DNA from: Candidatus Eiseniibacteriota bacterium
Lineage (GTDB): Bacteria; Eisenbacteria; RBG-16-71-46; JABDJR01; JAWXBZ01
Length of the DNA: 13,823 nt
Reading direction: 5' to 3'
NCBI GenBank assembly: GCA_034440375.1
Contig: JAWXBZ010000241.1
Location: forward strand, 1-13,823
Shown: positions 1 through 13,823 of the stretch, piece by piece
Layout of the letters: each line of letters begins with the position of its first letter
Numbering within the stretch: position 1 is the stretch's first letter
Translations under genes and position numbers: made by a program
The notes under the pieces: model-generated
Databases searched by the model: none
What the model saw: only the letters and a program-made list of their open reading frames with translations
Told to the model about the DNA's origin: nothing

Positions 1-3000
1 CACCGACAACGACCCGTCGGACGGATGGGGCGGCCTCGAAAATTGGCCGTTCAACCCGCTTGACGACAACATCGACAACGACCTGGACGGCACGTTCGAC
101 GAGGCCGACGAAAGCGAATTTGTGTACCACATTCGCGCCGTCGCCACGGATGACTGCTTCAACAAGGGATACAGCGACCGGCAGAACCCGTCGGTCATCG
201 TTCCGGTCACCGTCGATGCCACGCCGCCGGCCTGCGTGCTCGCGGCGCCGACCAACGGCTCCATTCACAGCATCGGTTCGACGATCACGCTGACCACCGC
301 GCCGTCGACCGACACCGATGTTCTCTACGTCTCGTTCCAGTACAACATCGGTGACGGCTGGCATGCCATCGATGCCACGCCGATTGACGATACCGACGAG
401 CTTGACGGTTTTGACGGTCAGCACACGCCGGCCACCGTCAGGAATGCGAACGGCACCTACAGCATCACATGGAACACCTGGTTCCTCACCGAGACGGACT
501 TTTACGTTCGTCTCCGGTGCGTCGCCCGGGACATCGCGGGTAATTTCTCCGGCGGTGGCGGGGCGTTTGACACGGGTGAACCGCCGATCGAATACGTCAC
601 CATCCTGATGAACGACGACACCGCTCCGCTGGCAGCCCTGACCCATGTGGCTGACACCGGTCCGGCGTACATCCTGAAGTCAATCGTCGACCCGACGCTG
701 GCCATCAACGACCAGGTTCTCCTGATCGGGACGGCCTCCGGCGGACGGAATGGCGATGTGGCCACGGTCATGCTGCAGTACTCCACCAATGGCACCACAT
801 GGCTGGATGCGGGCGTCACCAACGTCCTCGGCGAGTTCTTCGTCGAGGCGCCGCAGACCAACTTCTTCATCATCTTTGACACGATCGCCCTCGGCCTGGC
901 CGACGGGCCGGTCTGGCTGCGCACGGTAGCCGTCGATTCCGACGGCAACGTCCAGGGCGATACGAACGGCAACGGCATCCTCGAATCGAGTGAAGTCGTT
1001 CCGGGCGCCGTCAAGGTCGCCGTCGACAACAGCGAGCCGGCCATGTGGCTGGTCCAGGTGGGCCCGGTGTTCGGTTCGCCGGTCCCGGATCACACCCTGA
1101 TTCAGTACGACCTGTGGCCTCGTGAGGTCATGCGCGGAAGCCAGTTCGAGCTCGATTCGGCTCTCCGTCTGGCTGACGATCTGACCTTCCAGGCTGCCGA
1201 TCCAAACGACGGCAGCGTGGACGTCCTGAATGCCACCTTCCTCCAGTTCTACGACGACTGGACCGATCACGACCACCCGACGTGGGAGCCCGCGTTCCCG
1301 CCGATCCCGGAGATCGATGCGGACAACAACGGGGCCATCGACGTGAACGAGATCGAAAACTTCGTCGGCAACCTGTTCAACTACAACATCGCGTTCAGCA
1401 ACTTCCTGGACACTGCGGCTGACTGGCGCTTCGCGTATCGCGATGAGGTCGGCAACAACGGACCTCCCGGGCCGCCGCAGGATGGTCACTGGTATCTGCA
1501 GTTCGGCAGCATCAGTGCGCTGAAGGAAGCCATGAACGAGGCAGCTGGCGGCTTCGACCCCGGTGGGGAAGGCAAGGGGCTTCTCGCCCCGCAGTCGCCG
1601 GCCGGCTTCGACGCCATGCTGCCCGACAAGGAGTACCAGTTCCGCGCTCTGGCGATCGACTACGCGGGTAACGCCAACACCGGGTACATCGGTCACACAC
1701 TGCGCATCGACGCCACGGACCCGACCGTCGAGGAGATCTTCGCTGGAAACAACGAGATCGAGGGCGGCGGCGGCGGTGGCATTCAGATCACCCCCAGCAC
1801 GGCCCAGGTTGCGGGCGGCGATGACATGCCGCTGGCGGCCCTGGTGTTCGACGACTACCCGGTTTCAATCGTCGAGCGCGGTGCCAACAGCCGTTTGACT
1901 CCGCAAGGCTTCGATCCGGACCTCCCGGGTACCGACAGTGAATCGTCGGGTATCTGGGGTGTTCGCTTCGAGCAGCGCGCGCAGAACGGCGACGGCACCT
2001 GGCACAACATCGGTCTCGGTACCTTTAACTCCGAGACTGGTCTTTGGGAAATCATCTGGGAGACGCCGGAAAACCTGGCGCGGGGCACGCAGAGCCCGCA
2101 GCAGGATGACGGTTCGAGCACGACCGACTCGCTGTACGCCATTCGTGCGACGGCGGTCGACTCGGCCGGCAACGTCGGCTTCCTGATCCGCGAGGATGCG
2201 GTCAACGTTCAGGACCACACCCCGCCGGATGACACGGAAATTGTCGACATCAACGGTTCCGGTGAAGGCGACTGCGTCGGTAACTACCCACCGAACACGA
2301 ACGAAGAAACCGTTCGTGCGCCGGATGGCACGTGGATCCGAGGCACCGTCGAAATCACCGCGGCCACGCAGTACGGGGATCCCTCCATGCTGCCTGGCCT
2401 CTCCGAGAATGACGATGTCTTTAGGCCGACCGTGTTCTTCGAAGCTCGTCGTGTCGGATCGACGGAATGGTTCCTCATCGGGACCAGCACCGAACCGTTC
2501 GGCGGCGGCATCATCGAGAGCGCGCCCGGTGTCACGGAACTCCAGAGCCACCTCGGTCCGCAGTGGATCGTGGTGTGGAACACCCTTCAGGAAAACGGCA
2601 GTGGCGATCGGATCTGGGTGGACGGTCAGTACGAAGTCCGCGCCTGGGGCCGTGACGTCTGGGGCAATACAGAGCTCCTGACCAACGGTGAAATGCCGCT
2701 GACGGTTCGCGTCACGATCGACAACACGGCTCCGGTGGCGGAAGTTGACGCCGACTGGAGAACTCCGGGTCGCGAAGTCGAAGCGTCTGTCGAGCGGAAC
2801 AACCCGGCTGGCTACACCATCCTGGTTCGGACCGCCGACGACGACGAAGACATCACGATCCGTTACTACTACAAGCTCAGCACGGACCTGAACATCGCCT
2901 CGTCGTGGCACTTCATCGACGAAGATGACGAAGGGTTCGACGAAAGTGACGAGAATCCGGACAGGAATCGTCCGTACTCCTTCGACTGGAACACGAATGC

Positions 3001-6000
3001 CATCGCCGACTGTGATGACATCCTGATCCCGGGCGAGACGTACGACATCGGATTCTCCGCCACGGACCGTCTTTGCAACGAACTGAGTGTCGTCGCGGCG
3101 CATGACGCGGGTTACACCTCGCGCCTGCACGTGGTTGACACGATTGCTCCGATCGCTGTGATTACCGAACTCCAGCGTGAGGTCGGCAATAACGACAGAA
3201 TCGAGTTCCCGCAGCGCGTCCAGATCCGCGCCCTCAACTATCTGCAGGCGACCATCATCAACGGTCACCGGGATGGCGAGAGCGTCTCGTTCTGGTTCAC
3301 CCGGAAGACCGGCGCCACGGCACCGGCATTCAACACGGCGAACTGGACACTGGCCGATGCGGACATCGAAGAAGTGGGCGATCAGACCTGGCGTCTCCGG
3401 AACTGGGATTCGAGCACGCTGGCTGAAGGTGAGTGGTGGTTCGTGGCCGTGGCGGAAGATTGCTACGACAACAGCGACCCCAATCCAGTGGCCATCATTC
3501 TGGTCATCGATCGCACCGGCCCGACGTTTGTTGGAGTCAATCCCGACAATGGCGAGATTCTGGTGCCCGAGGTGACGGACTGCTTCAGCTCGAACAGCCC
3601 GCGCGTCATCGACCTCATCGTCCGCAACCTGGACAACGATGTCGACTACACGACGTTCAACGACAACAACATCGTCTTCCAGTACAAGAAGTCCGAAACG
3701 GCTGACCGCGAGGAGAACTGGATCGACATCACGAACCAGGAACTCCGTAACGGCGGCACCGGCAGCAACACCGGTCAGCAGCCGACCTACTCGGCGGCCA
3801 TCAACATCCGGAACCTGCAGGGTGACGGGCTCTACGACTTCCGTGTCTGCGCGCAGGACGTGGCGGGTAATCAGACCTACTACGTCTTCTCGACGATGGC
3901 GGTGGTTGACAACACAAAGCCGGTCATCGAGATCAGCTACATCCAGTTCCTCAACCGGATCGACGACGACGTTCTGGACCTGACGCCGCAGCCGGTGAAT
4001 GGCGGCATCCTGCCGGACATCTCGGCGGGCGAGCAGATCCGTCTGTACGTCACCGCTTCGGATGATGAACCGCAGATTCCGAACACCAAACAGCCGGGCA
4101 ATACGGACCTGACTGGTGTCTTTGAAATTCAGTTCTATCTGATCGACGGTCCGAACGGCAGCGGCACGTACCCGCAGAACCTGGGTACCGCCGCCTTCGA
4201 TGCGGCCACCGGTCAGTACTATGTCGTGTGGAACACCACGGCCCTGCCGGATGGTGACTACACGATCGAGGCGCGTGGCGAGGACGAAGTCCGTAACTGC
4301 ACCTCCAGCCAGACGGTCACCGGGAACGTTTCGAATCCCGCGAAGCCGCTGGCCCAGGTTGCGGCCTTCAATCCGGACCTGCTCTCGGAAATCACGAAGG
4401 GCACCAACAGCCGTGTGTACGGCCTGACCTTCGGCGAGAAGCTGGCCAGCACGATGTTCTTCCAGTACCGCACCATCCCGGCACAGGGCACCCCCTCGCC
4501 GGACTGGATCAACATCGGCGCTGCCAACTTTACCGGCGAGGTTCTGACGAGCCGCGAGCTGTCGCTCCTGCCCCAGTCGCTCTGGTTCAGCAACATGAGA
4601 ATCAGCGACATTCCCAACGACACCAACATCGACTTCCGCGCCGTGGCCGTTGCCTCGTCGTCGGTTGACTCACTCGGCCTTGGCGGAACCATCGCCACCG
4701 AACCGGTCAACGACACCGAGTCCAACTACTACGGTCGTACGGTCGGCGGCGGGTTCTCCACGGCAGACGGCGATCCGGGTGATTTCAGTGGTCTCTACGA
4801 CACGGCCAACACCCCGATCCTCCGGATGACGAAGCGGACCGGACCGACCGGCCAGGCATATCTTGAATACGTTCAGTCCCTCGCGGGCCAGCCCGAGCTA
4901 ATCACGGCGGTCAACTCGCAGGGCGTCGAATTCACCTCCAACACCCTCATCTCGGTCACCACGACCAGCGGCCTCGTGTCGCCCTTCGTGGTCATCGTCG
5001 GCGAGGATGGAACCGGTGCGATCGACGAGACGATTCTCGAGGTGAATCGCCGGATCGACAATCCGCTGATCTGGACGGGCGACTTCCGCTCCGGCTCGAC
5101 GGACTTTACCGATCTTGATCCGACGGAAGGTGCCCGAATCGGCGTGTTCGCCACGGCTCATCTGAAGCGTGCGACCCTCGACGCGGCTCCCCCGCGGATC
5201 GACATGGCAACCAAGCTCTGGACCATCCACCAGGTGACCCCGGCCGCCGGTTCCAACGGCATCGCGGGTATCGATGGACGGAACGGTCTGGACGCAAATG
5301 GTTGCCCGAAGGACGGCTTCGCTTTCGAAGTCCCGTCCGGTGCGTTCAACAACAACGTCGGAATGCTGCTCGACACGGTGAACCGTCCGACGACGCCGAC
5401 CGAGCAGGATCTGTACCTCTCGGCTTTCGGTCCGACCTATCGCGTGTACTTCCTGAACGACGATTGGGAAGACTGTGACGCCTGCGCCAATGACAACGGC
5501 TGGCAGTCCACCGGCTGGATGCGTTACGACGACAATGACCCGGCGATCCGCTCGGAAGCGGAAGTCACGGTCCGTCGCTGGAACGGCTCCGCCTGGACCT
5601 CATCCGGCATCAGTCACATCGAAGTCGATACGCTGAACAACTGCATCATGTTCACGTACGACCCGAACTCGGCAAGTCCCAAGGATCTGAATCCGATCTT
5701 CAGCGCGGTCACCACCGATCGGTTCAGCCCGGTTCAGGTGGACGCGGTTCCGTTCTGCCGCGGCTACTCGGATCAGGATCCGATCTTCAAGACAGTTCTC
5801 ACCAACCAGGGCGAGGCGATTGATCCGGGCACCATCCGGGTCTTCGTCGACGGCCGGGAAGTTGCGGCTGTCCGTTCCTACAACAAGGGTGATGTTCAAA
5901 CGGCATCCTCTTCAGGCGGCTACAGTCACTGGCTGCTCTACAACGGCTCGTGGCTCGACGTCGAGCAGATCAGCAGCGATGGTCGTCGCTACGAAGTGAC

Positions 6001-7474
6001 CTTCGGCTGGCCGTGCGATAACGCCACGGAACTGCAGGGTGGTCAGCACACCTTCGAGGTGTGGTTCTCCGATTTCAGCCGGAGCACCTTCTTCGGTGTG
6101 GGGCAGCCCTGGATCTTCGAGGTTGATCGCACCCCGCCGACGATCATCATGAACGGCGCCTTCGTGGGTGACCCGCGGCAGAACACCGCTGCCGGCTACA
6201 TCGGCGAAGACACCGATGCCATCACGGTCAAGTTGATCGACAGGGAGTCGGGCGTCCTCTTCCGCGAAGACCGGATCGACGACGACGACTACAGTCACTA
6301 CTGGTGGGACGATGTCGAGGACTATTGCGCCATCGCCCGCTACTCACTGCTCTATGACTCGTGGTTCTACGAGAACGAAATTCCGATCCAGTTCGATTCG
6401 GACAACAGTTTCAAGTACGACCTGTGGGTGGTGGATTCGGAAGCTGAGGACGATCAGACCTCGGTGGACGAAATCGAGGAGCGCACGCTGCTCCACACCG
6501 GCACGGCCGACGAACTGTGGCCGAACGTTACCTTCAGCGATGACGGCGACACCCTGACGGTTCCGCTCTATATCCTGGGCGGCGGCCGCATCAAGGACGG
6601 CGATGTGCTCGAAGTCGTTCTCTACAGCAAGCGCTATGAGATCGCCCCGATCACAAACCTCCTGAACGAGTATCTGGACCAGATTTCGGGTCAAGGTGGT
6701 CTGTACGGCGACGGCTGGTGGATCGATTTCTCCACCAAGCGTCTCGTCCAGTACGCCTCATCCATCCAGGACTGCATCAACAACGCCGGTTCGCGGTTCG
6801 TGGAGCAGCGGTTCATCGTCGACAAGGGCGCCCCGGTGGTCGAAGTGACCTCCCCGGGTATCTCCTGCGACGGGACACCGGTTGCCAACCCGATCGAGCC
6901 AGTGGCTGACTACACCTTCCATGCCAACTTCGACGACCAGGGTGCCGGCGTTAACCTGTCCACAGTGACAGTCACCGTCGTGGGCCCGGTTGCTGATGGG
7001 GACGTGAACGGTGTCACACTCAACGGTCTTGAAATCACCGAGGACGGTGTCACGTTCACCATTCCGCTGAGCGACCTGCTTGTCGGCCAGTACCGCATCC
7101 GCATCAAGGGTGAGGACCGGCTCGGCAACAAGTTCGACAAGGAATGCGTGCTCTTCGTGGGCGGCAACTCGCTCGCACTGGGCAACGTGGTTGCTTTCCC
7201 GAACCCCTTCAACCCGGGCGCCACGGATCTCACGCTGGCGTTCGACAACGTGAAAGCCGCCAACATCTCCGTCGAAGTCTTCGACTGGAACGGTGACAAG
7301 GTGGCCACCATCGGCCGGACGCAGTTGCCGGCCGGCAGGAACGTGATCAAGTGGGCGGGCCAGTCGGATGACGGCAAGCCGCTGGCGAACGGTGTCTACC
7401 TGGCTCGCATTGATGCGAACGATGGTACGCGCACCGTGAGCCAGGTCCTCAAGATCGCGGTCTGGCGTGATTAA
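1..7474 (+). CDS. Giant acidic secreted/surface protein with tandem Ig-like modules and C-terminal FlgD-Ig / T9SS-sorting-like domain (5'-truncated, >2490 aa)
   Basis: Frame 2 is open from nt 2 (TDNDPSDGWGGLENWPFNPLDDNIDNDLDGTFDEADESEFVYH...), so the GTG at 122 is internal and the true start lies upstream of the window. The motif pattern QY..W...WNT...Y.(L/I)RA.A.D..GN...(V/I)D.T.P recurs, as in bacterial Ig-like domains. The C-terminus reads FPNPFNP...ISVEVFDWNGDKVATI...KWAGQSDDGKPLANGVYLARI...KIAVWRD, an FlgD-Ig / T9SS-CTD-like signature. TAA at 7472-7474. Confidence 0.9.
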   Translation, partial: TDNDPSDGWGGLENWPFNPLDDNIDNDLDGTFDEADESEFVYHIRAVATDDCFNKGYSDRQNPSVIVPVTVDATPPACVLAAPTNGSIHSIGSTITLTTAPSTDTDVLYVSFQYNIGDGWHAIDATPIDDTDELDGFDGQHTPATVRNANGTYSITWNTWFLTETDFYVRLRCVARDIAGNFSGGGGAFDTGEPPIEYVTILMNDDTAPLAALTHVADTGPAYILKSIVDPTLAINDQVLLIGTASGGRNGDVATVMLQYSTNGTTWLDAGVTNVLGEFFVEAPQTNFFIIFDTIALGLADGPVWLRTVAVDSDGNVQGDTNGNGILESSEVVPGAVKVAVDNSEPAMWLVQVGPVFGSPVPDHTLIQYDLWPREVMRGSQFELDSALRLADDLTFQAADPNDGSVDVLNATFLQFYDDWTDHDHPTWEPAFPPIPEIDADNNGAIDVNEIENFVGNLFNYNIAFSNFLDTAADWRFAYRDEVGNNGPPGPPQDGHWYLQFGSISALKEAMNEAAGGFDPGGEGKGLLAPQSPAGFDAMLPDKEYQFRALAIDYAGNANTGYIGHTLRIDATDPTVEEIFAGNNEIEGGGGGGIQITPSTAQVAGGDDMPLAALVFDDYPVSIVERGANSRLTPQGFDPDLPGTDSESSGIWGVRFEQRAQNGDGTWHNIGLGTFNSETGLWEIIWETPENLARGTQSPQQDDGSSTTDSLYAIRATAVDSAGNVGFLIREDAVNVQDHTPPDDTEIVDINGSGEGDCVGNYPPNTNEETVRAPDGTWIRGTVEITAATQYGDPSMLPGLSENDDVFRPTVFFEARRVGSTEWFLIGTSTEPFGGGIIESAPGVTELQSHLGPQWIVVWNTLQENGSGDRIWVDGQYEVRAWGRDVWGNTELLTNGEMPLTVRVTIDNTAPVAEVDADWRTPGREVEASVERNNPAGYTILVRTADDDEDITIRYYYKLSTDLNIASSWHFIDEDDEGFDESDENPDRNRPYSFDWNTNAIADCDDILIPGETYDIGFSATDRLCNELSVVAAHDAGYTSRLHVVDTIAPIAVITELQREVGNNDRIEFPQRVQIRALNYLQATIINGHRDGESVSFWFTRKTGATAPAFNTANWTLADADIEEVGDQTWRLRNWDSSTLAEGEWWFVAVAEDCYDNSDPNPVAIILVIDRTGPTFVGVNPDNGEILVPEVTDCFSSNSPRVIDLIVRNLDNDVDYTTFNDNNIVFQYKKSETADREENWIDITNQELRNGGTGSNTGQQPTYSAAINIRNLQGDGLYDFRVCAQDVAGNQTYYVFSTMAVVDNTKPVIEISYIQFLNRIDDDVLDLTPQPVNGGILPDISAGEQIRLYVTASDDEPQIPNTKQPGNTDLTGVFEIQFYLIDGPNGSGTYPQNLGTAAFDAATGQYYVVWNTTALPDGDYTIEARGEDEVRNCTSSQTVTGNVSNPAKPLAQVAAFNPDLLSEITKGTNSRVYGLTFGEKLASTMFFQYRTIPAQGTPSPDWINIGAANFTGEVLTSRELSLLPQSLWFSNMRISDIPNDTNIDFRAVAVASSSVDSLGLGGTIATEPVNDTESNYYGRTVGGGFSTADGDPGDFSGLYDTANTPILRMTKRTGPTGQAYLEYVQSLAGQPELITAVNSQGVEFTSNTLISVTTTSGLVSPFVVIVGEDGTGAIDETILEVNRRIDNPLIWTGDFRSGSTDFTDLDPTEGARIGVFATAHLKRATLDAAPPRIDMATKLWTIHQVTPAAGSNGIAGIDGRNGLDANGCPKDGFAFEVPSGAFNNNVGMLLDTVNRPTTPTEQDLYLSAFGPTYRVYFLNDDWEDCDACANDNGWQSTGWMRYDDNDPAIRSEAEVTVRRWNGSAWTSSGISHIEVDTLNNCIMFTYDPNSASPKDLNPIFSAVTTDRFSPVQVDAVPFCRGYSDQDPIFKTVLTNQGEAIDPGTIRVFVDGREVAAVRSYNKGDVQTASSSGGYSHWLLYNGSWLDVEQISSDGRRYEVTFGWPCDNATELQGGQHTFEVWFSDFSRSTFFGVGQPWIFEVDRTPPTIIMNGAFVGDPRQNTAAGYIGEDTDAITVKLIDRESGVLFREDRIDDDDYSHYWWDDVEDYCAIARYSLLYDSWFYENEIPIQFDSDNSFKYDLWVVDSEAEDDQTSVDEIEERTLLHTGTADELWPNVTFSDDGDTLTVPLYILGGGRIKDGDVLEVVLYSKRYEIAPITNLLNEYLDQISGQGGLYGDGWWIDFSTKRLVQYASSIQDCINNAGSRFVEQRFIVDKGAPVVEVTSPGISCDGTPVANPIEPVADYTFHANFDDQGAGVNLSTVTVTVVGPVADGDVNGVTLNGLEITEDGVTFTIPLSDLLVGQYRIRIKGEDRLGNKFDKECVLFVGGNSLALGNVVAFPNPFNPGATDLTLAFDNVKAANISVEVFDWNGDKVATIGRTQLPAGRNVIKWAGQSDDGKPLANGVYLARIDANDGTRTVSQVLKIAVWRD
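122..4348 (+). repeat. Array of about 10 degenerate tandem Ig-like protein modules (about 124-228 aa spacing)
   Basis: Module-boundary motifs: VDATPP (nt 212), NDDTAP (611), VDNSEP (1022), IDATDP (1706), QDHTPP (2210), IDNTAP (2717), VDTIAP (3134), IDRTGP (3506), VDNTKP (3905), VSNPAKP (4328). Each is preceded by a variant of R.(V/T)A.D..GN. Two more occur at 6122 (VDRTPP) and 6818 (VDKGAP). The repeat is visible only at protein level. Confidence 0.75.
7172..7471 (+). other. FlgD-Ig / T9SS C-terminal sorting-like domain of the giant protein
   Basis: FPNPFNP, VEVFDWNGDKVATI, W.G..DDG..LANGVYLARI; these match the known CTD/FlgD_ig motif pattern. Confidence 0.85.
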
Positions 7475-7480
7475 CACCAC

Positions 7481-7514
7481 CTCCGGGGGGGGGGCGCGGG
7501 CCCTCCTCCCGGAG
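7481..7514 (+). other. Strong intergenic stem-loop (15 bp including 2 G-U pairs, GCGG loop) without U-tract; likely mRNA-stabilising, pausing or partial termination element
   Basis: CTCCGGGGGGGGGGC-GCGG-GCCCTCCTCCCGGAG, starting 6 nt after the stop codon. The two mismatches are G-U wobbles only in the + strand transcript. It is followed by TTCAAG, not poly-T. Confidence 0.7.
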
Positions 7515-7575
7515 TTCAAGTCGGAAGCGAAACACGGAATCAACGGGAATCGAGTGAGGCTGGGAAACTGTGGAA

Positions 7576-7583
7576 AAGGAGGT
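7576..7583 (+). promoter_or_regulatory. Shine-Dalgarno site
   Basis: AAGGAGGT 6 nt upstream of ATG 7590. Confidence 0.85.
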
Positions 7584-7589
7584 TTACTG

Positions 7590-9206
7590 ATGTTCGGTCG
7601 GAAGAGAGGAGCGATGATCGCGGTGGCCAGTTTGTTGGCGACCAGCGTGCTTTCGCTCACCGCCTCCGGAGCGGGCAACGAGAGCAGTGACGGCGCCGCG
7701 TTTCTTCGCGGTGGTGTTGGGCCTCGTTATCTGGCGATGGGCAGGGCGGGTACGGCCATTTCTCATGACGTTTACGCTGGCTACTGGAACCCGGCCGGTT
7801 TGGCCTCTTCCTGTGGTTGGCAGGTTGGCGGAATGTTTACCGGCGGTCTGGACTTTGATCGTAATCACAACTTCGTCGGTGCCAGCTACGGCAACAGCGG
7901 AAATTGGGGTATCGGTTTCGGTTGGACGAATGCCGGAACGAAGGAAATCGACGGTCGCAACCTCAGCGGCGGATCGACCGGTGTCTTCGATTACGGCGAG
8001 AACGCCGTGGCGTTGTCGCTGGCCAAGGCCTTCGATCGCGTTTCAGTCGGCCTGACCGGCAAGTACGTCACCCAGGATGTCGGCACCACGTTTGGCGTTA
8101 CGGATGACAACGCGAGCGGTTTCGGCCTCGACGTTGGAGCCATGTTCCACGCCAGCCAGTACTTCGACCTCGCCTTGCAGGCCCAGGATATCTGGGCCGA
8201 AGTGGGCGATGACGAAGCGACCAATGACGTTCCGACCTTCTTCAAGATCGGTGGCGCCATTTATCCGACGGACGGTTTCACCATCTCCTCGGACATCGAC
8301 CTGCTTCAGGACGATGACGGCGCGTTCTTCCGCATCGGCGGCGAGTATGCGTTCGACATGGGCGATGATTTTGACGGCGCCGTGCGTCTCGGTCTTGATA
8401 CCGGTCGCTTTACCGGCGGCATCGGAATCGGGCTTGACTGGGTGGACTTTGATTACGCGTACGTCGTCGAGCCGGAGGATTTCCAGGGCTCGAATCATCG
8501 CCTGGGCCTCAAGCTCAACTTCGGCTGTGACGAACAGCCGATGATGGCTTCCCGCTCGGGCGATCGTGATCGCGACGGCATTCCGGATGACGTGGATCGT
8601 TGCCCGGATCAGCCCGAGGATTTCGATGGCTTCCAGGACACCGACGGCTGTCCCGATCCGGATAATGACGGTGACGGCGTGGTCGATGCCCAGGATCAGT
8701 GCCCTGGTCAGGCGGAAGATTTTGACGGGTTCGAGGACACCGATGGTTGCCCCGATCTCGACAACGACAAGGACGGCATTCTCGACAAGGATGACAAGTG
8801 TCCGAACGCCCCCGAAACCTTCAACGGTTACGAGGACGCGGACGGTTGTCCGGATGACATGCCGTTCTGCTTCCCGATCGCCTTCATCAACTTCAAGTAC
8901 AACACCGCCGAGATGACCCATGCGGACTACATTCCGGTTCTCGAGGAAGTGGCCCGTATCATGAAGGAAAACATGGATGTCCGGGTGGAGATCCAGGGTC
9001 ACACGGACAGCATCGGCACCGACGAGTACAACCAGAGACTGTCGGAGCGCCGTTCGCAGGCCGTGAAGGACTACTTGATCGCGAAGGGGATCTCCGGCGA
9101 CCGCATGAGCACCCGCGGATTCGGCGAAGGCCAGCCGATTGACACCAACGACACCGATCTTGGTCGGGCCCGTAACCGCCGGATCGAGTTCAAGGTGATC
9201 AAGTAA
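7590..9206 (+). CDS. PorV/FadL-family outer-membrane beta-barrel fused to thrombospondin type-3 repeats and a C-terminal OmpA-like peptidoglycan-binding domain (538 aa)
   Basis: Start reassigned to ATG 7590 (SD site; signal peptide MFGRKRGAMIAVASLLATSVLSLTASG). The N-terminal motif AAFLRGGVGPRYLAMGRAGTAISHDVYAGYWNPAGL is the PorV/FadL-family signature. Amphipathic strands end in DFDYAY...NHRLGLKLNF. TSP3-like DxDxDG..D..D.CP repeats follow, then OmpA motifs INFKYNTA, VEIQGHTDSIGTDEYNQRLSERRSQAVKDYL, GFGEGQPI, GRARNRRIEF. Confidence 0.9.
   Translation: MFGRKRGAMIAVASLLATSVLSLTASGAGNESSDGAAFLRGGVGPRYLAMGRAGTAISHDVYAGYWNPAGLASSCGWQVGGMFTGGLDFDRNHNFVGASYGNSGNWGIGFGWTNAGTKEIDGRNLSGGSTGVFDYGENAVALSLAKAFDRVSVGLTGKYVTQDVGTTFGVTDDNASGFGLDVGAMFHASQYFDLALQAQDIWAEVGDDEATNDVPTFFKIGGAIYPTDGFTISSDIDLLQDDDGAFFRIGGEYAFDMGDDFDGAVRLGLDTGRFTGGIGIGLDWVDFDYAYVVEPEDFQGSNHRLGLKLNFGCDEQPMMASRSGDRDRDGIPDDVDRCPDQPEDFDGFQDTDGCPDPDNDGDGVVDAQDQCPGQAEDFDGFEDTDGCPDLDNDKDGILDKDDKCPNAPETFNGYEDADGCPDDMPFCFPIAFINFKYNTAEMTHADYIPVLEEVARIMKENMDVRVEIQGHTDSIGTDEYNQRLSERRSQAVKDYLIAKGISGDRMSTRGFGEGQPIDTNDTDLGRARNRRIEFKVIK
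8562..8858 (+). repeat. Three tandem 33-aa (99-nt) thrombospondin type-3-like Ca-binding repeats
   Basis: DRDRDGIPDDVDRCPDQPEDFDGFQDTDGCPDP / DNDGDGVVDAQDQCPGQAEDFDGFEDTDGCPDL / DNDKDGILDKDDKCPNAPETFNGYEDADGCPDD, starting at 8562, 8661 and 8760. Confidence 0.9.
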
Positions 9207-9209
9207 GAA

Positions 9210-9225
9210 GGGTGCTTCGGCACCC
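9210..9225 (+). other. Small cUUCGg tetraloop hairpin immediately after the stop codon
   Basis: GGGTGC-TTCG-GCACCC: 6-bp perfect stem closed by C(UUCG)G. Confidence 0.65.
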
Positions 9226-9264
9226 CCACAGTTTCCCGTAGTATCGATTCCGACCAGACAGGAG

Positions 9265-9302
9265 CGCCGCCGGTTCTTCGGAACCGGCGGCGTTTCTTTT
9301 TT
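9265..9302 (+). terminator. Rho-independent terminator
   Basis: CGCCGCCGGTTC-TTCG-GAACCGGCGGCG (12-bp perfect stem, cUUCGg loop) followed by TTTCTTTTTT. Confidence 0.92.
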
Positions 9303-9333
9303 CGACCCCTATTGAGAACCAGGCTGGGAGTGG

Positions 9334-9783
9334 TTATCGACCCCGCGTCTTCAGATGTCCCCGGATCGTCCGATCGGTGGACAGGGGCGGGTTAACGTCG
9401 CCCCGCGCGGCCAGGCGCGCGGTGACCCGTTCACGATTCCGTTCCAACCAGCGGTCAAAATCATCGACGGTCCGAAAAAGGACCTTCTCTGCCGGCTGGC
9501 CGGTCGTCATCTCGCAGGATGCGGCATCGTAATCGCGACAAATCTGAAAGCGATCTTCATAGATGGCGCAGCCGTCGGCCGTCAGGTTCTCGCAGACGTT
9601 GTTGACCAGGAAGTACCAGTCGTCTTCGTGCCCGATGTAAATATGGATGTTCCGGTGAGCCAGGTACCAGCGGACATGGTCCAGGTCGGCTTCCGTCTTC
9701 GGTGCGTCGATGGAGAGGCTGACATACGTGCAGCAGAACTGGCAGCTGATACAGGTCCGGGACCAGTCCACCTTCGTCGTCAT
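9334..9783 (-). CDS. YkgJ-family cysteine-cluster (CxxCxxCC) protein, putative Fe-S/Zn-binding (149 aa)
   Basis: CISCQFCC near the N-terminus and CENLTADGCAIYEDRFQICRDY later, the characteristic C..L....C.IY..R...CR.Y motif of this family. Confidence 0.88.
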   Translation of the reverse strand: MTTKVDWSRTCISCQFCCTYVSLSIDAPKTEADLDHVRWYLAHRNIHIYIGHEDDWYFLVNNVCENLTADGCAIYEDRFQICRDYDAASCEMTTGQPAEKVLFRTVDDFDRWLERNRERVTARLAARGDVNPPLSTDRTIRGHLKTRGR

Positions 9784-9790
9784 GGCCGGG

Positions 9791-9820
9791 ACGCTAGCAC
9801 TGCCCCTGGCGGCCGGTCAA
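9791..9820 (-). promoter_or_regulatory. Candidate sigma70 promoter for the YkgJ-family gene (probably a leaderless transcript)
   Basis: Minus strand reads TTGACC-N18-TAGCGT with TG in the extended -10 position. The ATG (9783) follows the -10 box after 7 nt, with no SD site. Confidence 0.6.
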
Positions 9821-9826
9821 CGCGCC

Positions 9827-9856
9827 TTGCCCATCGCGGAACGCGGGTGATACCAT
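9827..9856 (+). promoter_or_regulatory. Candidate sigma70 promoter for the DUF2007-like / membrane protein / LacI unit
   Basis: TTGCCC-N18-TACCAT with an extended -10 TG at 9848-9849, in the divergent intergenic gap. Confidence 0.55.
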
Positions 9857-9920
9857 TTTCCCTGCCGGCCGCGGAGTCTCTTAAGAAGCCGGGCCCGTCG
9901 AAAGTGAGGAACGACATCCA

Positions 9921-11797: not shown

Positions 11798-13126
11798 ATG
11801 CGAATTGCTTCCCATGCCGCCCGATGGTTACCGATCGCGTTGCTCCTCGTGGCCGCCCCGGCGGCCTGGTCGGCCACCGGGCTCGATCTGCAGGGACGAA
11901 TCGTGGTGGACGGTCAGTCCAACGATTTCCTGCCGGGTGAATCCCTCTTCGGGTTCAACGAGGATTTGGCCCAGGACGAGGAGTCGCGGGTCGATTCGCG
12001 ATGGCAGGACAACGATATCGCCCAGCTGCATCTGACATGGGACGCCGACTCGGTCTACATTGCCGGCGACGGGGTCATCAACGGCAACAACATGATCCTG
12101 CTCTGGGATGTCGGAAACCCCCATCCGGGCGTCTTCGCCACAACGGGGATCGACTTCGACGGCCTCGGCGAGATGACCAATCTCAACTCGTGGCGCCGCA
12201 ACTTCGTCTTCGCCGAGCCATTTCGGCCCGACCTGTTCGCCGCCACCTGGGATGGCAACACGGCACCGCACCTGCTGACCGCGTCCAACGACAACAGCGT
12301 GGTCGATGAGCAGCCGGCCGGTACCGGTGGCGGGCCATCGCTGTTCCGCTCGGTGGCCTCATTCCAGGGCACCCAGTCCGGCCGTTCGATGGAGGTGGCG
12401 CTCCCCTGGTGGAAGTTCATGGGCTTTCCCAACGAGTCCGGTCTATCCAGGCGATTCAGCCCGGCCCTGGGCGACAGCGTTCCCGTCCTGCCCGACGGCG
12501 TACGATTCATCCGCGTCGTCGGCGTCATCACCGCCGGCGGCGACGGCACCGGCGGCCCCGACTCCGCGCCGGACAATTTCGGCGGGCACGAAGTTGACGG
12601 TTCCATCCAGGTGGTCATCGATAACTGGATCACGGTTGATCTCGACACGCTGAACGACGAAACCGGAGAGCCGGGCCCCGACCGGATCCCCGATTTCGGC
12701 ATTGATCCCCGCGACCGGGTGGAGTTCGTCGAACGCCCCCCGATCAACCCCGTTCGCATTGAGTTCGACCAGTTCCAGTTCAGCCGGCCGTACCTGGCCC
12801 CCGAACGCGGGGAAGAGGTTGAGTACACGTTCAACTTCCGACCGGAACTCCCCCCCGAACAGAGGAACCGCCGAACGCAGATATCCGCGTCGATCTACGA
12901 TCTGCGCGGCGAGAAAGTCCGGACGCTCTATACCAGGGACTTCAACCCATCCTTGAACGATGCCAATCCGCGGCGTCTGATCCGCGATCCGGTCGACCCC
13001 CGGCATGACCGCTGGGATGGCCGTAACGACGATGGTGAGATCGTGAAGGGCGGTGTCTACCTCCTGCGCCTGATCCTGGAACCGGACCTGGCACGGCTCA
13101 CCAAGGCCGTGGGCGTGAAGCGATGA
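11798..13126 (+). CDS. Secreted protein with putative DOMON/CBM9-like beta-sandwich and C-terminal FlgD-Ig / T9SS-sorting-like domain (442 aa)
   Basis: Signal peptide MRIASHAARWLPIALLLVAAPAAWS. The pattern IVVDGQSNDF...NDIAQLHLTWDADSVYIAG...SMEVALPW resembles DOMON-like/CBM9 folds (tentative). The C-terminal ISASIYDLRGEKVRTLY...RWDGRNDDGEIVKGGVYLLRL...KAVGVKR is FlgD-Ig/CTD-like. Confidence 0.82.
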   Translation: MRIASHAARWLPIALLLVAAPAAWSATGLDLQGRIVVDGQSNDFLPGESLFGFNEDLAQDEESRVDSRWQDNDIAQLHLTWDADSVYIAGDGVINGNNMILLWDVGNPHPGVFATTGIDFDGLGEMTNLNSWRRNFVFAEPFRPDLFAATWDGNTAPHLLTASNDNSVVDEQPAGTGGGPSLFRSVASFQGTQSGRSMEVALPWWKFMGFPNESGLSRRFSPALGDSVPVLPDGVRFIRVVGVITAGGDGTGGPDSAPDNFGGHEVDGSIQVVIDNWITVDLDTLNDETGEPGPDRIPDFGIDPRDRVEFVERPPINPVRIEFDQFQFSRPYLAPERGEEVEYTFNFRPELPPEQRNRRTQISASIYDLRGEKVRTLYTRDFNPSLNDANPRRLIRDPVDPRHDRWDGRNDDGEIVKGGVYLLRLILEPDLARLTKAVGVKR

Positions 13127-13823
13127 TCCGGACGGCACGAAGCGCCCTCCTCTTCATGGCCCTTCAGGCCGCGCTCCTGTATCCGGCGACCGCCGGGGCC
13201 TACTTTGAGGAATCGGAAGTCGGAGTTCGATCAGTCGGATTCGGCCGCGCGTTCACCGCCATCGCCGACGATGCCTCGGCCATCCACTGGAACGCGGCGG
13301 GTCTGGCCGGAATGGCGCGGTCGCAGGTGCTCCTCGCCTATTCACGCCCGTATAACGTCGAGGGGCTCCAGTCCAACTACCTTTCGCTGGCGATGCCCCT
13401 GTCGTTCGCCTCGGCGGGCATCTCCTGGCACCACTTCGGCGCCGCCGACATCCTTTCCGAGGACACATTCAGCCTGGCGCTGGCGCGGGACATCTGGGAC
13501 AGCGGGCCCTGGCGCGTCGCCGTCGGGGCTACGGGCAAGCTGGCCCGGATCGGTTTCGCCGATTACACCGATCGGACCACCTCGGACGATGTGTCGGGTA
13601 TTTCGGAGAGCCATGTGACCGCCGACGCCAGCATCCTCTTGCGCCACGGCTCCCGCTTTCGCTTCGGGGCGAACCTGGCCAACATCGGTTCGCCGTCGTT
13701 CGACCTCGTGGACGGATCGTCCGGCGGCACCGACCTGCCCACGGTACTTCGTCTCGGCGCGGCGTTCCAGTGGAATCCCGAGTCGATCATCTCGATGGAC
13801 ATCCAGCAGGTGGATGAGGATCG
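13123..13823 (+). CDS. Second PorV/FadL-family outer-membrane beta-barrel (3'-truncated; absent from the ORF track)
   Basis: The ATG overlaps the upstream TGA (ATGA, 13123-13126) and the frame is open to the window end: MIRTARSALLFMALQAALLYPATAGA-YFEESEVGVRSVGFGRAFTAIADDASAIHWNAAGLAGM...AGISWHHFGAADILSEDTFSLALAR...VGATGKL...FRFGANLANIGSP...LPTVLRLGAAFQW. This gives a signal peptide plus the PorV-family N-terminal signature. Confidence 0.88.
   Translation, partial: MIRTARSALLFMALQAALLYPATAGAYFEESEVGVRSVGFGRAFTAIADDASAIHWNAAGLAGMARSQVLLAYSRPYNVEGLQSNYLSLAMPLSFASAGISWHHFGAADILSEDTFSLALARDIWDSGPWRVAVGATGKLARIGFADYTDRTTSDDVSGISESHVTADASILLRHGSRFRFGANLANIGSPSFDLVDGSSGGTDLPTVLRLGAAFQWNPESIISMDIQQVDED

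What the first reader, a model, noticed from the sequence alone, without database searches (positions are those of the whole stretch)
7590..9206. PorV-like barrel fused to TSP3 repeats and OmpA domain: a one-protein tether from surface cargo to peptidoglycan
Seen in sequence: signal peptide, then about 300 aa of PorV-like barrel, 3 x 33-aa TSP3 repeats and an OmpA C-terminal domain in one frame. Established knowledge: PorV is normally a stand-alone barrel, and in Bacteroidota peptidoglycan anchoring of PorP/type-B cargo complexes is attributed to a separate OmpA-domain lipoprotein (PorE). Inference: the fusion combines cargo-binding barrel and wall anchor, so it would be an immobile anchor for the upstream giant protein rather than a mobile shuttle, with a Ca/disulfide-stabilised periplasmic spacer.
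Basis: partly seen in the sequence, partly recalled or inferred. Interest (0 to 1): 0.75.

Follow-up and report, generated by a model that had tools for sequence, protein, structure and literature searches.

The report
PorV-type barrel fused to wall anchor
An outer-membrane barrel of the PorV/PorQ family carries its own calcium-repeat spacer and peptidoglycan-binding domain and follows the gene for a giant surface protein, so it probably pins that protein to the cell wall; the family is conserved in an uncultured phylum and I found no description of it.

Summary
ORF 7590-9206 encodes a 538-aa protein with four parts: a signal peptide, a 14-stranded PorV/PorQ-family barrel, three 33-aa TSP3 repeats, and an OmpA_C domain that keeps the peptidoglycan-binding D/N/R triad.

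It is not a one-off. More than 100 full-length homologues exist, and every one that carries an organism name is from Candidatus Eisenbacteria. Among the nearest barrel relatives about one third carry C-terminal periplasmic modules (OmpA, TPR, SH3, CRD and others).

In 3 of 3 loci holding the fusion, a giant protein with a T9SS type-A/FlgD-Ig C-terminal domain (CTD) ends 100-115 nt upstream on the same strand. A complex prediction places that CTD on the predicted extracellular loops of the barrel (ipSAE 0.85, best control 0.00). Solved PorV-CTD complexes may explain this pass.

- the phylum is not Bacteroidota;
- the CTD is type A-like, not type B;
- a working precedent exists in Myxococcus TraB (barrel + TSP3 + OmpA, partner of TraA).

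Immobility, CTD retention and the presence of a T9SS in this organism are untested. I rate it a new variant of a known kind, of moderate interest.

The parts
2..7474 (+). Giant secreted or surface protein. 2490 aa are seen and the 5' end is cut by the window; orthologues reach 3300-4200 aa. It is rich in Ig-like domains.
   Evidence: Big_3_3 at 44.9 bits. It is homologous to the gene upstream of the fusion in L001 (28% identity over 1751 aligned positions, E 4e-136). Orthologues are P0207-P0212.
7154..7471 (+). C-terminal sorting or docking domain (CTD) of the giant, residues 2385-2490. It is a 7-stranded Ig-like sandwich of the T9SS type A / FlgD_ig kind.
   Evidence: TIGR04183 scores 27.5 bits (cut-off 23), residues 2399-2484. 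PF13860 scores 30.8 bits (cut-off 27). The PorU C-terminus model NF033707 scores 52 bits. The AF2 model has 7 strands at fragment residues 343-437 with pLDDT about 80-93. This is the partner chain.
7481..7514 (+). GC-rich 15-bp hairpin directly after the giant's stop codon, with no U tract. It contains a G10 run at 7485-7494.
   Evidence: the 115-nt spacer folds at -47.4 kcal/mol. Comparable hairpins occupy the same position in L001 and L002. Its function is unknown.
7576..7582 (+). Ribosome-binding site AAGGAGG, 7 nt before the ATG at 7590.
   Evidence: AAGGAGGT also precedes the L001 and L002 genes.
7590..9206 (+). Fusion gene: signal peptide, PorV/PorQ-family barrel, 3 TSP3 repeats and an OmpA_C domain (538 aa).
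7692..8522 (+). PorV/PorQ-family barrel with 14 strands, residues 35-311.
   Evidence: NF033709 scores 97.4-100.4 bits (cut-off 90). AF2 gives 14 strands. PorV is the best structural match.
8562..8858 (+). Three 33-aa TSP3 repeats (residues 325-423), each with an Asp-rich stretch and two Cys. Presumed periplasmic Ca-binding spacer.
   Evidence: repeat identities and Cys positions. (5wtl_A at E 2.1e-62). (C338 and C354 invariant; C371, C387, C404 and C420 conserved in at least 90%).
8892..9179 (+). OmpA_C-like peptidoglycan-binding domain, residues 435-530, with D473/N481/R488.
   Evidence: PF00691 scores 79.9 bits. N481 and R488 are invariant and D473 is conserved in at least 90% of 62 homologues. 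The 8/7 spacing equals that of PorE Asp576/Asn584/Arg591 (PMC7192894 passages).
9260..9307 (+). Intrinsic-terminator-like hairpin (17 pairs) plus a T run, closing the two-gene unit.
11798..13126 (+). Second candidate cargo: a 442-aa secreted protein with a weak FlgD_ig-like C-terminus.
   Evidence: BLASTP against the giant's CTD gives E 1e-5. Atlas look-alikes are CBM9 + Por_Secre_tail proteins at 0.86-0.88, which is a lead only. No Pfam hit.
13123..13821 (+). Second PorV/PorQ-like barrel. It overlaps the preceding gene by 4 nt and is cut by the window end.
   Evidence: NF033709 scores 56 bits on the truncated protein. It scores 60.7 bits against the barrel profile of the fusion family.

Best explanation
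The gene encodes a dedicated outer-membrane docking barrel for the giant protein encoded just upstream, and the barrel is itself tethered to the cell wall.

Proposed mechanism:
1. The protein is exported through its signal peptide (seen in the sequence) and inserted as a 14-stranded PorV/PorQ-type barrel (modelled).
2. The barrel's C-terminal end faces the periplasm (inferred from barrel topology).
3. Three disulfide-containing, Ca-binding TSP3 repeats act as a spacer (by homology to 5WTL).
4. The OmpA_C domain binds the diaminopimelate stem peptide of peptidoglycan non-covalently (binding triad conserved; binding itself inferred).
5. The giant protein crosses the outer membrane by a T9SS-type route directed by its type-A/FlgD-Ig CTD (inferred). 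The CTD then stays docked on the barrel's extracellular loops (predicted complex).
6. One polypeptide therefore links a very large surface protein through the outer membrane to the wall. This gives a load-bearing anchor with restricted lateral movement rather than a freely diffusing PorV shuttle (inferred by analogy with PorP-PorE and TraB).
For: **Architecture.**

**Family conservation.**
- Of the 120 best rows, most are full-length, at 40-87% identity.
- 8 of the 120 share only the C-terminal module.
- All 6 rows that carry an organism name are Candidatus Eisenbacteria.

**The fusion defines a clade.** In the barrel-only search, 44 of the 45 best rows carry OmpA. The exception is a partial sequence. 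Below about 36% identity the relatives are stand-alone barrels of about 300 aa.

**Synteny.**
- In 3 of 3 loci holding the fusion (window, L001, L002) a CTD-bearing ORF ends 100-115 nt upstream on the same strand.
- The L001 giant is homologous to the window's.
- Downstream genes are not conserved.

**Operon signals.** A strong RBS precedes the gene, and a terminator-like site appears only after the fusion gene.

**Predicted complex of barrel residues 30-315 with the CTD.**
- ipSAE is 0.85 (three runs: 0.86, 0.84, 0.85); the best of 3 controls is 0.00.
- The runs agree in at least 83% of contacts, and the partner's pLDDT is at least 84.
- In the tool's calibration, 116 of 157 solved complexes and 2 of 215 mismatched pairs reached the mark. 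These counts hold only roughly here because my own alignments were used.
- Contact residues 89-91, 115-128, 162-175, 205-214, 241 and 294-299 lie in or next to the loops between strands 1-2, 3-4, 5-6, 7-8, 9-10 and 13-14 of the model. That is the face opposite the C-terminus.

**Peptidoglycan-binding triad.** D473/N481/R488 is conserved.

**Precedents in print.**
- PorE-PorP-PG1035 and SprF-SprB, with the proposal that non-mobile cargo is tied to the wall through PorP-PorE-like complexes (PMC9143113, abstract and passages).
- PorZ and PorU keep their CTDs and sit on PorQ and PorV (PMC10947112, passages).
- TraB's OmpA domain is needed for outer-membrane exchange and is proposed to restrain TraA diffusion (PMC12045341, passages).

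**A second pair.** A second candidate CTD-protein-to-PorV-like-barrel pair lies in the same window.

**PorE-like modules on related barrels.** Relatives of the barrel carry TPR (8 of 47), CarboxypepD_reg (1 of 47) or OmpA (12 of 47). These are three of the four domain kinds the PorE papers list for PorE (PMC9143113).
Against: - Nothing here is experimental.
- PorV-CTD complexes are solved (8gl6), so the pass may reflect likeness rather than specific binding.
- In Bacteroidota, type A CTDs are normally cleaved by PorU and the cargo is moved to A-LPS. Docking could therefore be transient.
- I could not check whether this organism has SprA/Sov, PorU or GldKLMN.
- Synteny rests on three loci only.
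- A strong hairpin sits between the two genes, so co-transcription is not certain.
- The barrel fails the equivalog cut-offs of PorV (31.4 against 250), PorQ (38.1 against 220) and PorV2 (46.6 against 325).
- The TSP3-OmpA module is promiscuous. In 69 other proteins it is joined to OMP_b-brl (14), Phenol_MetA_deg (4), DUF5723 (1) and others. On its own it therefore says nothing about cargo.
- The one PorV-related (DUF5723) OmpA fusion seen in another phylum (L011) has no recognisable CTD protein upstream.
Confidence: 0.55

Rival explanations
1. It is the organism's general PorV-type T9SS component. It receives many CTD cargos at the translocon and happens to be wall-tethered. On this reading it is a fixed secretion-site component, not a dedicated anchor for the neighbouring giant.
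For: - It passes the PorV/PorQ family cut-off, and its best structural match is PorV.
- FlgD_ig/Por_Secre_tail CTDs occur on many unrelated large proteins (20 of the 26 hits share only the CTD).
- The complex prediction may be generic to PorV-CTD pairs (caveat).
- PorP-PorE is proposed to anchor the T9SS machinery to the wall (PMC9143113 passages).
Against: - The gene is linked to one giant gene family in 3 of 3 loci.
- A second PorV/PorQ-like barrel lies behind another candidate cargo in the same 14 kb. This argues for several paralogues with their own partners.
- It falls far below the PorV equivalog cut-off (31.4 against 250).
Confidence: 0.17
2. It is a general envelope tether or FadL-like channel. 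On this reading it is an OmpA-type structural link between outer membrane and wall, perhaps also passing hydrophobic solutes, and its position next to the giant gene is incidental.
For: - The TSP3-OmpA module is joined to many different barrels (14 OMP_b-brl and 4 Phenol_MetA_deg among 69 proteins).
- The barrel is of the FadL fold class (FadL, TbuX and TodX hits).
- Weak Toluene_X and TraF_2 hits occur in relatives.
Against: - PorV is a better match than FadL by structure (TM 0.63-0.64 against 0.44-0.55) and by sequence profile.
- The gene pair is conserved while the downstream genes differ.
- The predicted CTD docking has clean controls.
Confidence: 0.1
3. It is a TraAB-like contact device. 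The giant is a cell-cell or cell-substrate adhesin, and the wall-anchored barrel transmits force to the outer membrane, as proposed for TraA/TraB. Its role would then be adhesion, motility or membrane exchange rather than simple display.
For: - The best NCBIfam hit of the whole protein is TraB (136 bits, residues 380-537).
- The domain order and gene order match TraA-TraB as described in PMC12045341 (passages).
- The giant is built of Ig-like domains, typical of adhesins.
Against: - The TraB score is far below its cut-off (136 against 700), and its best-matched stretch covers only the TSP3/OmpA part.
- The giant has a T9SS-type CTD, not a MYXO-CTERM tag.
- There is no evidence of polymorphism or self-recognition.
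- The family of TraB's barrel was not tested here.
Confidence: 0.1

Closest known systems
[quoted passage not shown]
   Same: 14-stranded FadL-type barrel. It is the best structural match (TM 0.63-0.64). The family profile hits it at E 9.9e-18. The CTD is predicted to bind on the outer loops.
   Different: PorV is a stand-alone barrel described as a shuttle (PMC9143113 passages). Here the barrel is fused to TSP3 and OmpA_C, scores 31.4 against the PorV equivalog cut-off of 250, lies next to one cargo gene, and comes from another phylum.
PorQ-PorZ and PorV-PorU pairs of the P. gingivalis attachment complex
   Same: A PorV/PorQ-family barrel holds a surface protein whose CTD is not cleaved (PMC10947112 passages). 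The giant's C-terminal region gives its best NCBIfam hit and best Foldseek hit to PorU (52 bits; 6za2, E 8.3e-10 but low TM).
   Different: There is no peptidoglycan-binding domain on PorQ or PorV. The PorQ equivalog score is 38.1 against 220. Whether the giant keeps its CTD is unknown.
PorP/SprF-like barrels with PorE-like OmpA lipoproteins (type B cargo anchoring)
   Same: The logic is the same: a 14-stranded FadL-family barrel encoded beside its cargo gene, linked to the wall by an OmpA_C domain (PMC9143113, PMC7192894 passages).
   Different: In that system two proteins do the job and the cargo has a type B CTD. Here it is one polypeptide, the cargo CTD is type A-like, and no PorP/SprF model matched the barrel even at E up to 10.
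TraB (with TraA) of Myxococcus xanthus outer-membrane exchange
   Same: Signal peptide, outer-membrane barrel, TSP3 repeats and OmpA, with a large surface partner carrying a C-terminal sorting tag. The OmpA domain is functionally required (PMC12045341 passages). TraB is the best whole-protein NCBIfam hit.
   Different: Only the TSP3/OmpA part matches (136 against 700 bits). The partner's tag is MYXO-CTERM, not a T9SS CTD. TraB's barrel family was not tested here.
Capnocytophaga gingivalis OmpA periplasmic portion (PDB 5wtl/5wtp)
   Same: TSP3 repeats followed by OmpA_C. It is the best sequence match (E 2.1e-62) and the best structural match (E 9.7e-15) for residues 325-538.
   Different: From recall, that protein's membrane part is an ordinary OmpA-type barrel. 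Related proteins carry OMP_b-brl. Here the membrane part is PorV-like.

Membership tests
PorV/PorQ family (NCBIfam NF033709) | Score at or above the curated cut-off (90 bits) | tested here: met
   97.4 bits for the whole protein and 100.4 bits for residues 1-315.
PorV/PorQ family (NCBIfam NF033709) | 14-stranded FadL-type outer-membrane barrel | tested here: met
   The AF2 model has 14 strands at residues 76-311. PorV is the top barrel match, followed by FadL, TbuX and TodX. This is a model, not a solved structure.
PorV proper (NF033710 equivalog; T9SS shuttle) | Equivalog score of at least 250 bits | tested here: not met
   31.4 bits.
PorV proper (NF033710 equivalog; T9SS shuttle) | Binds the CTD of type A cargo | tested here: inconclusive
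   The predicted complex scores 0.85 against a best control of 0.00. This is a prediction only, and solved PorV-CTD complexes may drive it.
PorV proper (NF033710 equivalog; T9SS shuttle) | Associates with the SprA/Sov translocon and with PorU; free to move between them | not testable with these tools
   No genome of the organism is in hand. The fused OmpA domain argues against free movement (inference).
PorQ (NF033711) | Equivalog score of at least 220 bits | tested here: not met
   38.1 bits.
PorP/SprF-like type B cargo partner | Sequence membership in the PorP/SprF family | tested here: not met
   No PorP/SprF model appears among the 5 NCBIfam hits at E up to 10.
PorP/SprF-like type B cargo partner | Encoded next to its cognate CTD cargo gene | tested here: met
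   3 of 3 loci. However, the cargo CTD is type A-like.
TraB outer-membrane exchange protein (NF033763) | Score of at least 700 bits | tested here: not met
   136.4 bits; the best stretch covers residues 380-537 only.
TraB outer-membrane exchange protein (NF033763) | Barrel + TSP3 + OmpA, paired with an upstream surface receptor bearing MYXO-CTERM | tested here: not met
   The domain order is the same. The partner carries a T9SS-type CTD instead. The only MYXO-related hit is 17.4 bits against a cut-off of 150, and it lies in the middle of the protein.
OmpA_C-like peptidoglycan-binding domain (PF00691) | Pfam gathering score, and conserved Asp/Asn/Arg that bind diaminopimelate | tested here: met
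   79.9 bits against 27.2. D473/N481/R488 have the same 8/7 spacing as PorE D576/N584/R591 and are conserved in 62 homologues. The correspondence rests on motif spacing, not on a residue-by-residue alignment to PorE. Binding itself was not tested.
Thrombospondin type 3 repeat (PF02412) | Asp-rich Ca-binding repeat with an intra-repeat Cys pair | tested here: met
   There are three 33-aa repeats with two Cys each. The family profile matches 5wtl at E 2.1e-62, and many homologues carry PF02412. The single-sequence Pfam score is just under its cut-off (22.7 against 25). Ca binding was not tested.
T9SS type A CTD (TIGR04183 / PF18962, PF13860) on the giant | Curated score at the extreme C-terminus and a 7-stranded Ig-like sandwich | tested here: met
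   TIGR04183 scores 27.5 against 23, and PF13860 scores 30.8 against 27. PF18962 is below its cut-off (19.8 against 27). The AF2 model has seven strands. The 3+4 sandwich description is taken from the start of the PMC11285876 abstract in the search listing only.

The most novel reading that the evidence does not exclude
Eisenbacteria and related uncultured lineages may run a cassette form of T9SS-type surface display. Each large CTD protein would bring its own PorV/PorQ-family barrel. That barrel would carry, in the same polypeptide, the periplasmic functions that Bacteroidota place on PorE (OmpA, TPR, CRD) or other wall-directed modules (SH3, a PBP transpeptidase domain). The giant-plus-barrel pair here would then be a single-molecule mechanical link from a micrometre-scale surface protein to the wall. 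Functionally it would converge on TraAB, and it could be used for force-bearing adhesion, motility or cell-cell contact.
Probability: 0.25. Interest if true: 0.7.

Novelty: new variant of a known kind. Interest (0 to 1): 0.5.

Why it matters
A natural fusion of a PorV/PorQ-type barrel with the wall-binding domain kind found in PorE is a Rosetta-stone argument. It suggests that FadL-type T9SS barrels and PorE-like proteins act as one unit, which is still only proposed from pull-downs in P. gingivalis.

It also gives a simple two-gene system for testing how a CTD is held on a barrel, and what wall anchoring adds.

It extends T9SS-type cargo-barrel pairing to an uncultured phylum outside Bacteroidota, with a type A-like CTD.

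The parallel with TraB suggests that 'barrel + TSP3 + OmpA behind a big surface protein' is a recurrent design for load-bearing surface structures.

Tried and rejected
1. **Genome scan for synteny.** Of 79 loci, only L001 and L002 hold the barrel fused to that module (hmmsearch). Synteny is therefore 3 of 3 and a lower bound.

2. **Taxonomy of the OmpA-, TPR- and SH3-fused representatives.** The taxonomic range of the fusions outside Eisenbacteria is unknown.

3. **Downstream conservation.** The 258-aa ORF at 9355-10131 has no family hit and no likeness to the ORF after the L001 gene. It is probably spurious, because the CxxCxxCC gene lies on the opposite strand. L001 and L002 have riboflavin genes downstream instead.

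4. **A PorV-related fusion in another phylum.** L011 (Fibrobacterota) has DUF5723 + OmpA in 821 aa. Its 832-aa upstream neighbour has no Pfam hit and no CTD, so pairing could not be generalised.

5. **Signals in the DNA.** There is no DNA-level tandem repeat in the TSP3 region. No sigma-70-like promoter was found in 7300-9500. That scan does not cover other promoter types.

6. **Fold search of the giant's last 440 aa.** PorU is the top hit, but all TM-scores are low (0.2 or less by query) because many Ig-domain chains match. This is weak support only.

7. **FadL-type transporter reading.** I considered it and ranked it low (see rival explanations).

8. **Literature.** I found no paper on this architecture.
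   - 'Eisenbacteria' + 'type IX secretion': 0 papers.
   - 'PorV' + 'OmpA' + 'thrombospondin': 0 papers.
   - 'PorV-like' + 'OmpA': 0 papers.
   - PorV/OmpA/fusion/C-terminal domain/FCB, at least 4 of 5 terms: 19 papers, 12 listed, none on this by title.
   - 'Eisenbacteria' + 'secretion system': 7 papers, none relevant by title. One was opened (PMC11495043) and was irrelevant.
   - Subscription journals are not covered by these searches.
Full report
**What is in the window.** The window has about 60-68% G+C. On the + strand a very long ORF runs from the window start to 7474 (2490 aa seen, 5' end missing). A 115-nt spacer follows, and then the ORF of the finding at 7590-9206 (538 aa). AAGGAGG lies 7 nt before the ATG at 7590. 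A 17-pair hairpin with a T run lies at 9260-9307. The two genes therefore look like one unit. One caveat: a 15-bp GC hairpin without a U tract sits directly after the first stop codon (7481-7514).

Further right are:
- a CxxCxxCC-domain gene on the minus strand (9334-9783);
- a LacI-family regulator (10562-11623);
- a 442-aa protein without a family match (11798-13126);
- a second PorV/PorQ-like barrel that overlaps the 442-aa gene by 4 nt and is cut by the window end (13123-13821).

**Checking the observation.**
- *OmpA domain.* PF00691 scores 79.9 bits (cut-off 27.2) at residues 435-530.
- *TSP3 repeats.* Three 33-aa repeats lie at 325-357, 358-390 and 391-423. They share 19-22 of 33 residues pairwise, and each has two cysteines. 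The single-sequence Pfam TSP_3 score is marginal (22.7 against 25). However, a profile of 62 homologues (A1) matches the solved TSP3+OmpA_C fragment of Capnocytophaga gingivalis OmpA (5wtl_A) at E 2.1e-62.
- *Barrel, by sequence.* It passes NCBIfam's PorV/PorQ family cut-off: 97.4 bits against 90, and 100.4 bits for the barrel alone. The A1 profile hits solved F. johnsoniae PorV at E 9.9e-18.
- *Barrel, by structure.* The AlphaFold2 model (mean pLDDT 77.9; barrel and OmpA parts mostly 80-95; TSP3 linker 55-69) has 14 strands between residues 76 and 311. By Foldseek the best barrel matches are PorV 8gl6_F and 6h3i_F (E 1.5e-12, TM 0.63-0.64), ahead of TbuX, FadL and TodX (TM 0.44-0.55).

**Where it comes from and how common it is.** The full-length search returned 7898 hits at E <= 1e-3 among 8000 scored candidates. 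Most of these reflect the OmpA module.
- Among the 120 best rows, most are full-length relatives of about 480-560 aa at 40-87% identity.
- 8 of the 120 match only the C-terminal 38-43%, and some of these carry PF13505.
- All 6 rows with an organism name are Candidatus Eisenbacteria. They are annotated 'PorV/PorQ family protein' or 'OmpA family protein'.

NCBI files that phylum under 'Bacteria candidate phyla'. Its placement near the FCB group is my recollection.

A search scored on the barrel alone (residues 30-315) shows that the fusion defines a clade.
- 44 of the 45 best rows carry OmpA. The exception is a partial sequence.
- One more OmpA-bearing protein appears at 36% identity.
- All further relatives are mostly about 300-aa stand-alone barrels with PorV or UPF0164 Pfam labels. 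Some are named Elusimicrobia, Lindowbacteria or Hydrogenedentota.

**The barrel subfamily is often extended.** An exhaustive profile search with three Eisenbacteria barrels (A3) found 14,969 representatives at E <= 1e-3 and 199 at E <= 1e-30. Of the best 150:
- 96 are 280-373 aa, 5 are shorter, and 49 are 374 aa or longer with the barrel at the N-terminus;
- 16 of 150 match my TSP3/OmpA profile, two of them fragments.

A Pfam scan of 47 of the 49 long ones (the other two were already known to carry OmpA) gave:

| C-terminal domain | Count of 47 |
|---|---|
| OmpA (one with three copies; seven without TSP3 repeats) | 12 |
| TPR | 8 |
| SH3_3 | 3 |
| PBP transpeptidase | 1 |
| CarboxypepD_reg | 1 |
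| FlgT_C | 1 |
| Cu_amine_oxidN1 | 1 |
| nothing recognised | 20 |

So 'PorV is a stand-alone barrel' is true of the studied proteins but not of this branch. TPR, CRD and OmpA_C are three of the four PorE domains listed in PMC9143113 (passages).

Conversely, the TSP3-OmpA module is promiscuous. Of the 88 ORFs with that module in the fetched loci, I scanned 69. I left out the three PorV-fused ones, five longer than 1400 aa, and eleven that were cut or short. Among the 69:
- 14 have OMP_b-brl;
- 4 have Phenol_MetA_deg;
- 3 have DUF4398;
- 1 has Beta_helix/NosD;
- 1 has DUF5723, a PorV-related family (L011, Fibrobacterota);
- none has a PorV Pfam hit.

**The neighbour.** The giant's last ~100 residues pass TIGR04183 (type A T9SS sorting domain; 27.5 against 23) and PF13860 FlgD_ig (30.8 against 27). 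PF18962 is below its cut-off. The strongest NCBIfam hit is to the C-terminal 140 positions of the PorU model (52 bits, far below the equivalog cut-off). An AF2 model of the last 440 aa (nine-sequence alignment A2) is confident from about residue 220 onwards. It ends in a seven-stranded sandwich. Its top Foldseek hit is P. gingivalis PorU (6za2, E 8.3e-10), but all TM-scores are low.

In both other loci that hold the fusion (L001 and L002, both Eisenbacteria MAGs), a same-strand ORF ends 100 and 114 nt upstream.
- It carries the same CTD signature: TIGR04183 at 23.4 and 29.0 bits.
- In L001 it is at least 3299 aa long and is homologous to the window's giant (28% over 1751 aligned positions, E 4e-136).
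- In L002 it is cut by the contig start.
- Downstream genes differ (riboflavin genes).

**Does the barrel bind the CTD?** I ran one complex prediction: barrel residues 30-315 (62-row alignment) against the giant's last 106 residues (9-row alignment).
- It scored ipSAE 0.85 (runs 0.86, 0.84, 0.85), against 0.00 for the best of three controls.
- The runs agreed in at least 83% of contacts, and the partner's pLDDT was at least 84.
- In the tool's calibration, 116 of 157 solved complexes and 2 of 215 mismatched pairs reached the mark. These counts hold only roughly here because my own alignments were used.
- The contacted barrel residues (89-91, 115-128, 162-175, 205-214, 241, 294-299, plus the N-terminal 32-41) lie in or beside the loops joining strands 1-2, 3-4, 5-6, 7-8, 9-10 and 13-14 of the model. 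That is the face opposite the barrel's C-terminus, as expected if the TSP3-OmpA part is periplasmic and the CTD is outside.
- PorV-CTD complexes have been solved (8gl6), so the pass shows likeness to them. It does not show that this pair binds or binds specifically.

**Wall binding.** In PorE, the side chains of Asp576, Asn584 and Arg591 bind the diaminopimelate of a co-crystallised stem peptide, and these residues are conserved across OmpA-family proteins (PMC7192894, passages). The stretch GHTDSIGTDEYNQRLSERR here has D473, N481 and R488 at the same 8/7 spacing. N481 and R488 are invariant and D473 is conserved in at least 90% of the 62 homologues. The TSP3 Cys pairs are likewise invariant or conserved in at least 90%.

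That TSP3 repeats of a bacterial OmpA bind calcium in a disulfide-dependent way I know only from two sources. One is the title of Dai et al. 2017 in the reference list of PMC12045341. The other is the 5wtl entry description. I did not read that paper.

**Most likely mechanism.** The protein is a dedicated docking barrel for the giant and is itself pinned to peptidoglycan. The steps, and which are shown or inferred, are set out under Best explanation. Three published precedents make this plausible.
- Gorasia et al. found PorE-PorP-PG1035 and SprF-SprB complexes. They proposed that non-mobile type B cargo is tied to the wall through PorP-PorE-like complexes, while mobile SprB has only SprF (PMC9143113, abstract and passages).
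- PorZ and PorU keep their CTDs and sit on PorQ and PorV (PMC10947112, passages).
- M. xanthus TraB is described as signal peptide + outer-membrane barrel + TSP3 + OmpA. It works 1:1 with the large surface receptor TraA. Its OmpA domain is needed for outer-membrane exchange and is proposed to restrain diffusion (PMC12045341, passages).

TraB is also the best whole-protein NCBIfam hit here, but only through the TSP3/OmpA part (136 bits against a cut-off of 700).

**What it is not.**
- It is not an equivalog of PorV (31.4 against 250), PorQ (38.1 against 220) or PorV2 (46.6 against 325).
- No PorP/SprF model matches it.
- It is not TraB.

I therefore file it as a member of the PorV/PorQ superfamily with a fused wall-binding module. 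It works like PorP+PorE or like TraB, without being a member of either.

**Open points.**
- Whether Eisenbacteria have the T9SS translocon and sortase could not be checked.
- In Bacteroidota, type A CTDs are normally cleaved, which would make docking transient.
- Synteny rests on three loci.
- The intercistronic hairpin, conserved in position in all three loci, may uncouple expression of the two genes.

**Novelty and score.** Databases already label these proteins automatically as PorV/PorQ or OmpA family. However, five literature searches found no paper describing a PorV-type barrel fused to an OmpA or TSP3 module, or T9SS in Eisenbacteria. The searches cover open-access papers only. I rate it a new variant of a known kind, with interest about 0.5. 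It is a useful natural fusion for the PorP/PorE anchoring model and a neat convergence with TraB. All of its parts are known and nothing has been shown experimentally.

Noticed in passing
window 11798-13821 (+): A second candidate cargo-then-barrel pair. A 442-aa secreted protein has a C-terminus that weakly resembles the giant's CTD (BLASTP E 1e-5). Its Atlas look-alikes are CBM9 + Por_Secre_tail proteins at 0.86-0.88, which is a lead only. It is followed, with a 4-nt overlap, by another PorV/PorQ-like barrel cut by the window end (NF033709 56 bits). Whether that barrel also carries a periplasmic module cannot be seen.
   Followed up: partly
window 7481-7514; L001 9901-10000; L002 1142-1255: A strong GC-rich hairpin lies directly after the giant gene's stop codon in all three loci. 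The spacer folds are -47 to -53 kcal/mol. The sequence is not conserved, and there is no clear U tract in the window or L001. An AAGGAGG(T) ribosome-binding site follows in each case. This could be an intercistronic attenuator or an mRNA 3'-end stabiliser. The window copy contains a G10 run (7485-7494), the only homopolymer of 8 or more G or C in the window.
   Followed up: partly
proteins P0268-P0373, relatives of the barrel: PorV/PorQ-like barrels occur fused at the C-terminus to TPR (8 of 47 long representatives) and SH3_3 (3 of 47). Single cases carry a PBP transpeptidase domain (P0282, 673 aa), CarboxypepD_reg (P0330), FlgT_C (P0292), Cu_amine_oxidN1 (P0372) and three OmpA domains in a row (P0267, 764 aa). 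20 of the 47 have extensions of 70-270 aa with no Pfam match. Their organisms are unknown.
   Followed up: partly
window residues C313 and C427 of the fusion protein (nt 8526-8528 and 8868-8870): Besides the six TSP3 cysteines, two further cysteines flank the repeat block just after the barrel and just before the OmpA domain. A third (C75) lies in the N-terminal segment. C313 and C427 are not among the conserved columns. A clamp disulfide is possible but untested.
   Followed up: no
window 9334-9783 (-) and 9355-10131 (+): A CxxCxxCC-domain protein (PF03692, 28.2 bits) is encoded on the minus strand. It overlaps a 258-aa plus-strand ORF that has no family match and no counterpart in L001. The plus-strand ORF is probably not a gene.
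   Followed up: partly
window 10562-11623 (+): A LacI-family transcriptional regulator (LacI HTH plus Peripla_BP_3) lies between the two cargo-barrel pairs. The overlapping 397-aa minus-strand ORF has no family match.
   Followed up: no
L006 9083-12714; L007 7064-10855; L074 6876-10855: In KSB1, Fibrobacteres and Chitinispirillaceae MAGs, two TSP3/OmpA-module proteins are encoded in tandem on the same strand. The N-terminal parts of most of them have no Pfam match.
   Followed up: no
L011 8384-10849 (+), Fibrobacterota: An 821-aa protein combines DUF5723, a family that co-occurs with PorV Pfam hits, with OmpA. Its upstream neighbours are an 832-aa protein without any Pfam match and a 1354-aa TPR protein.
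   Followed up: partly
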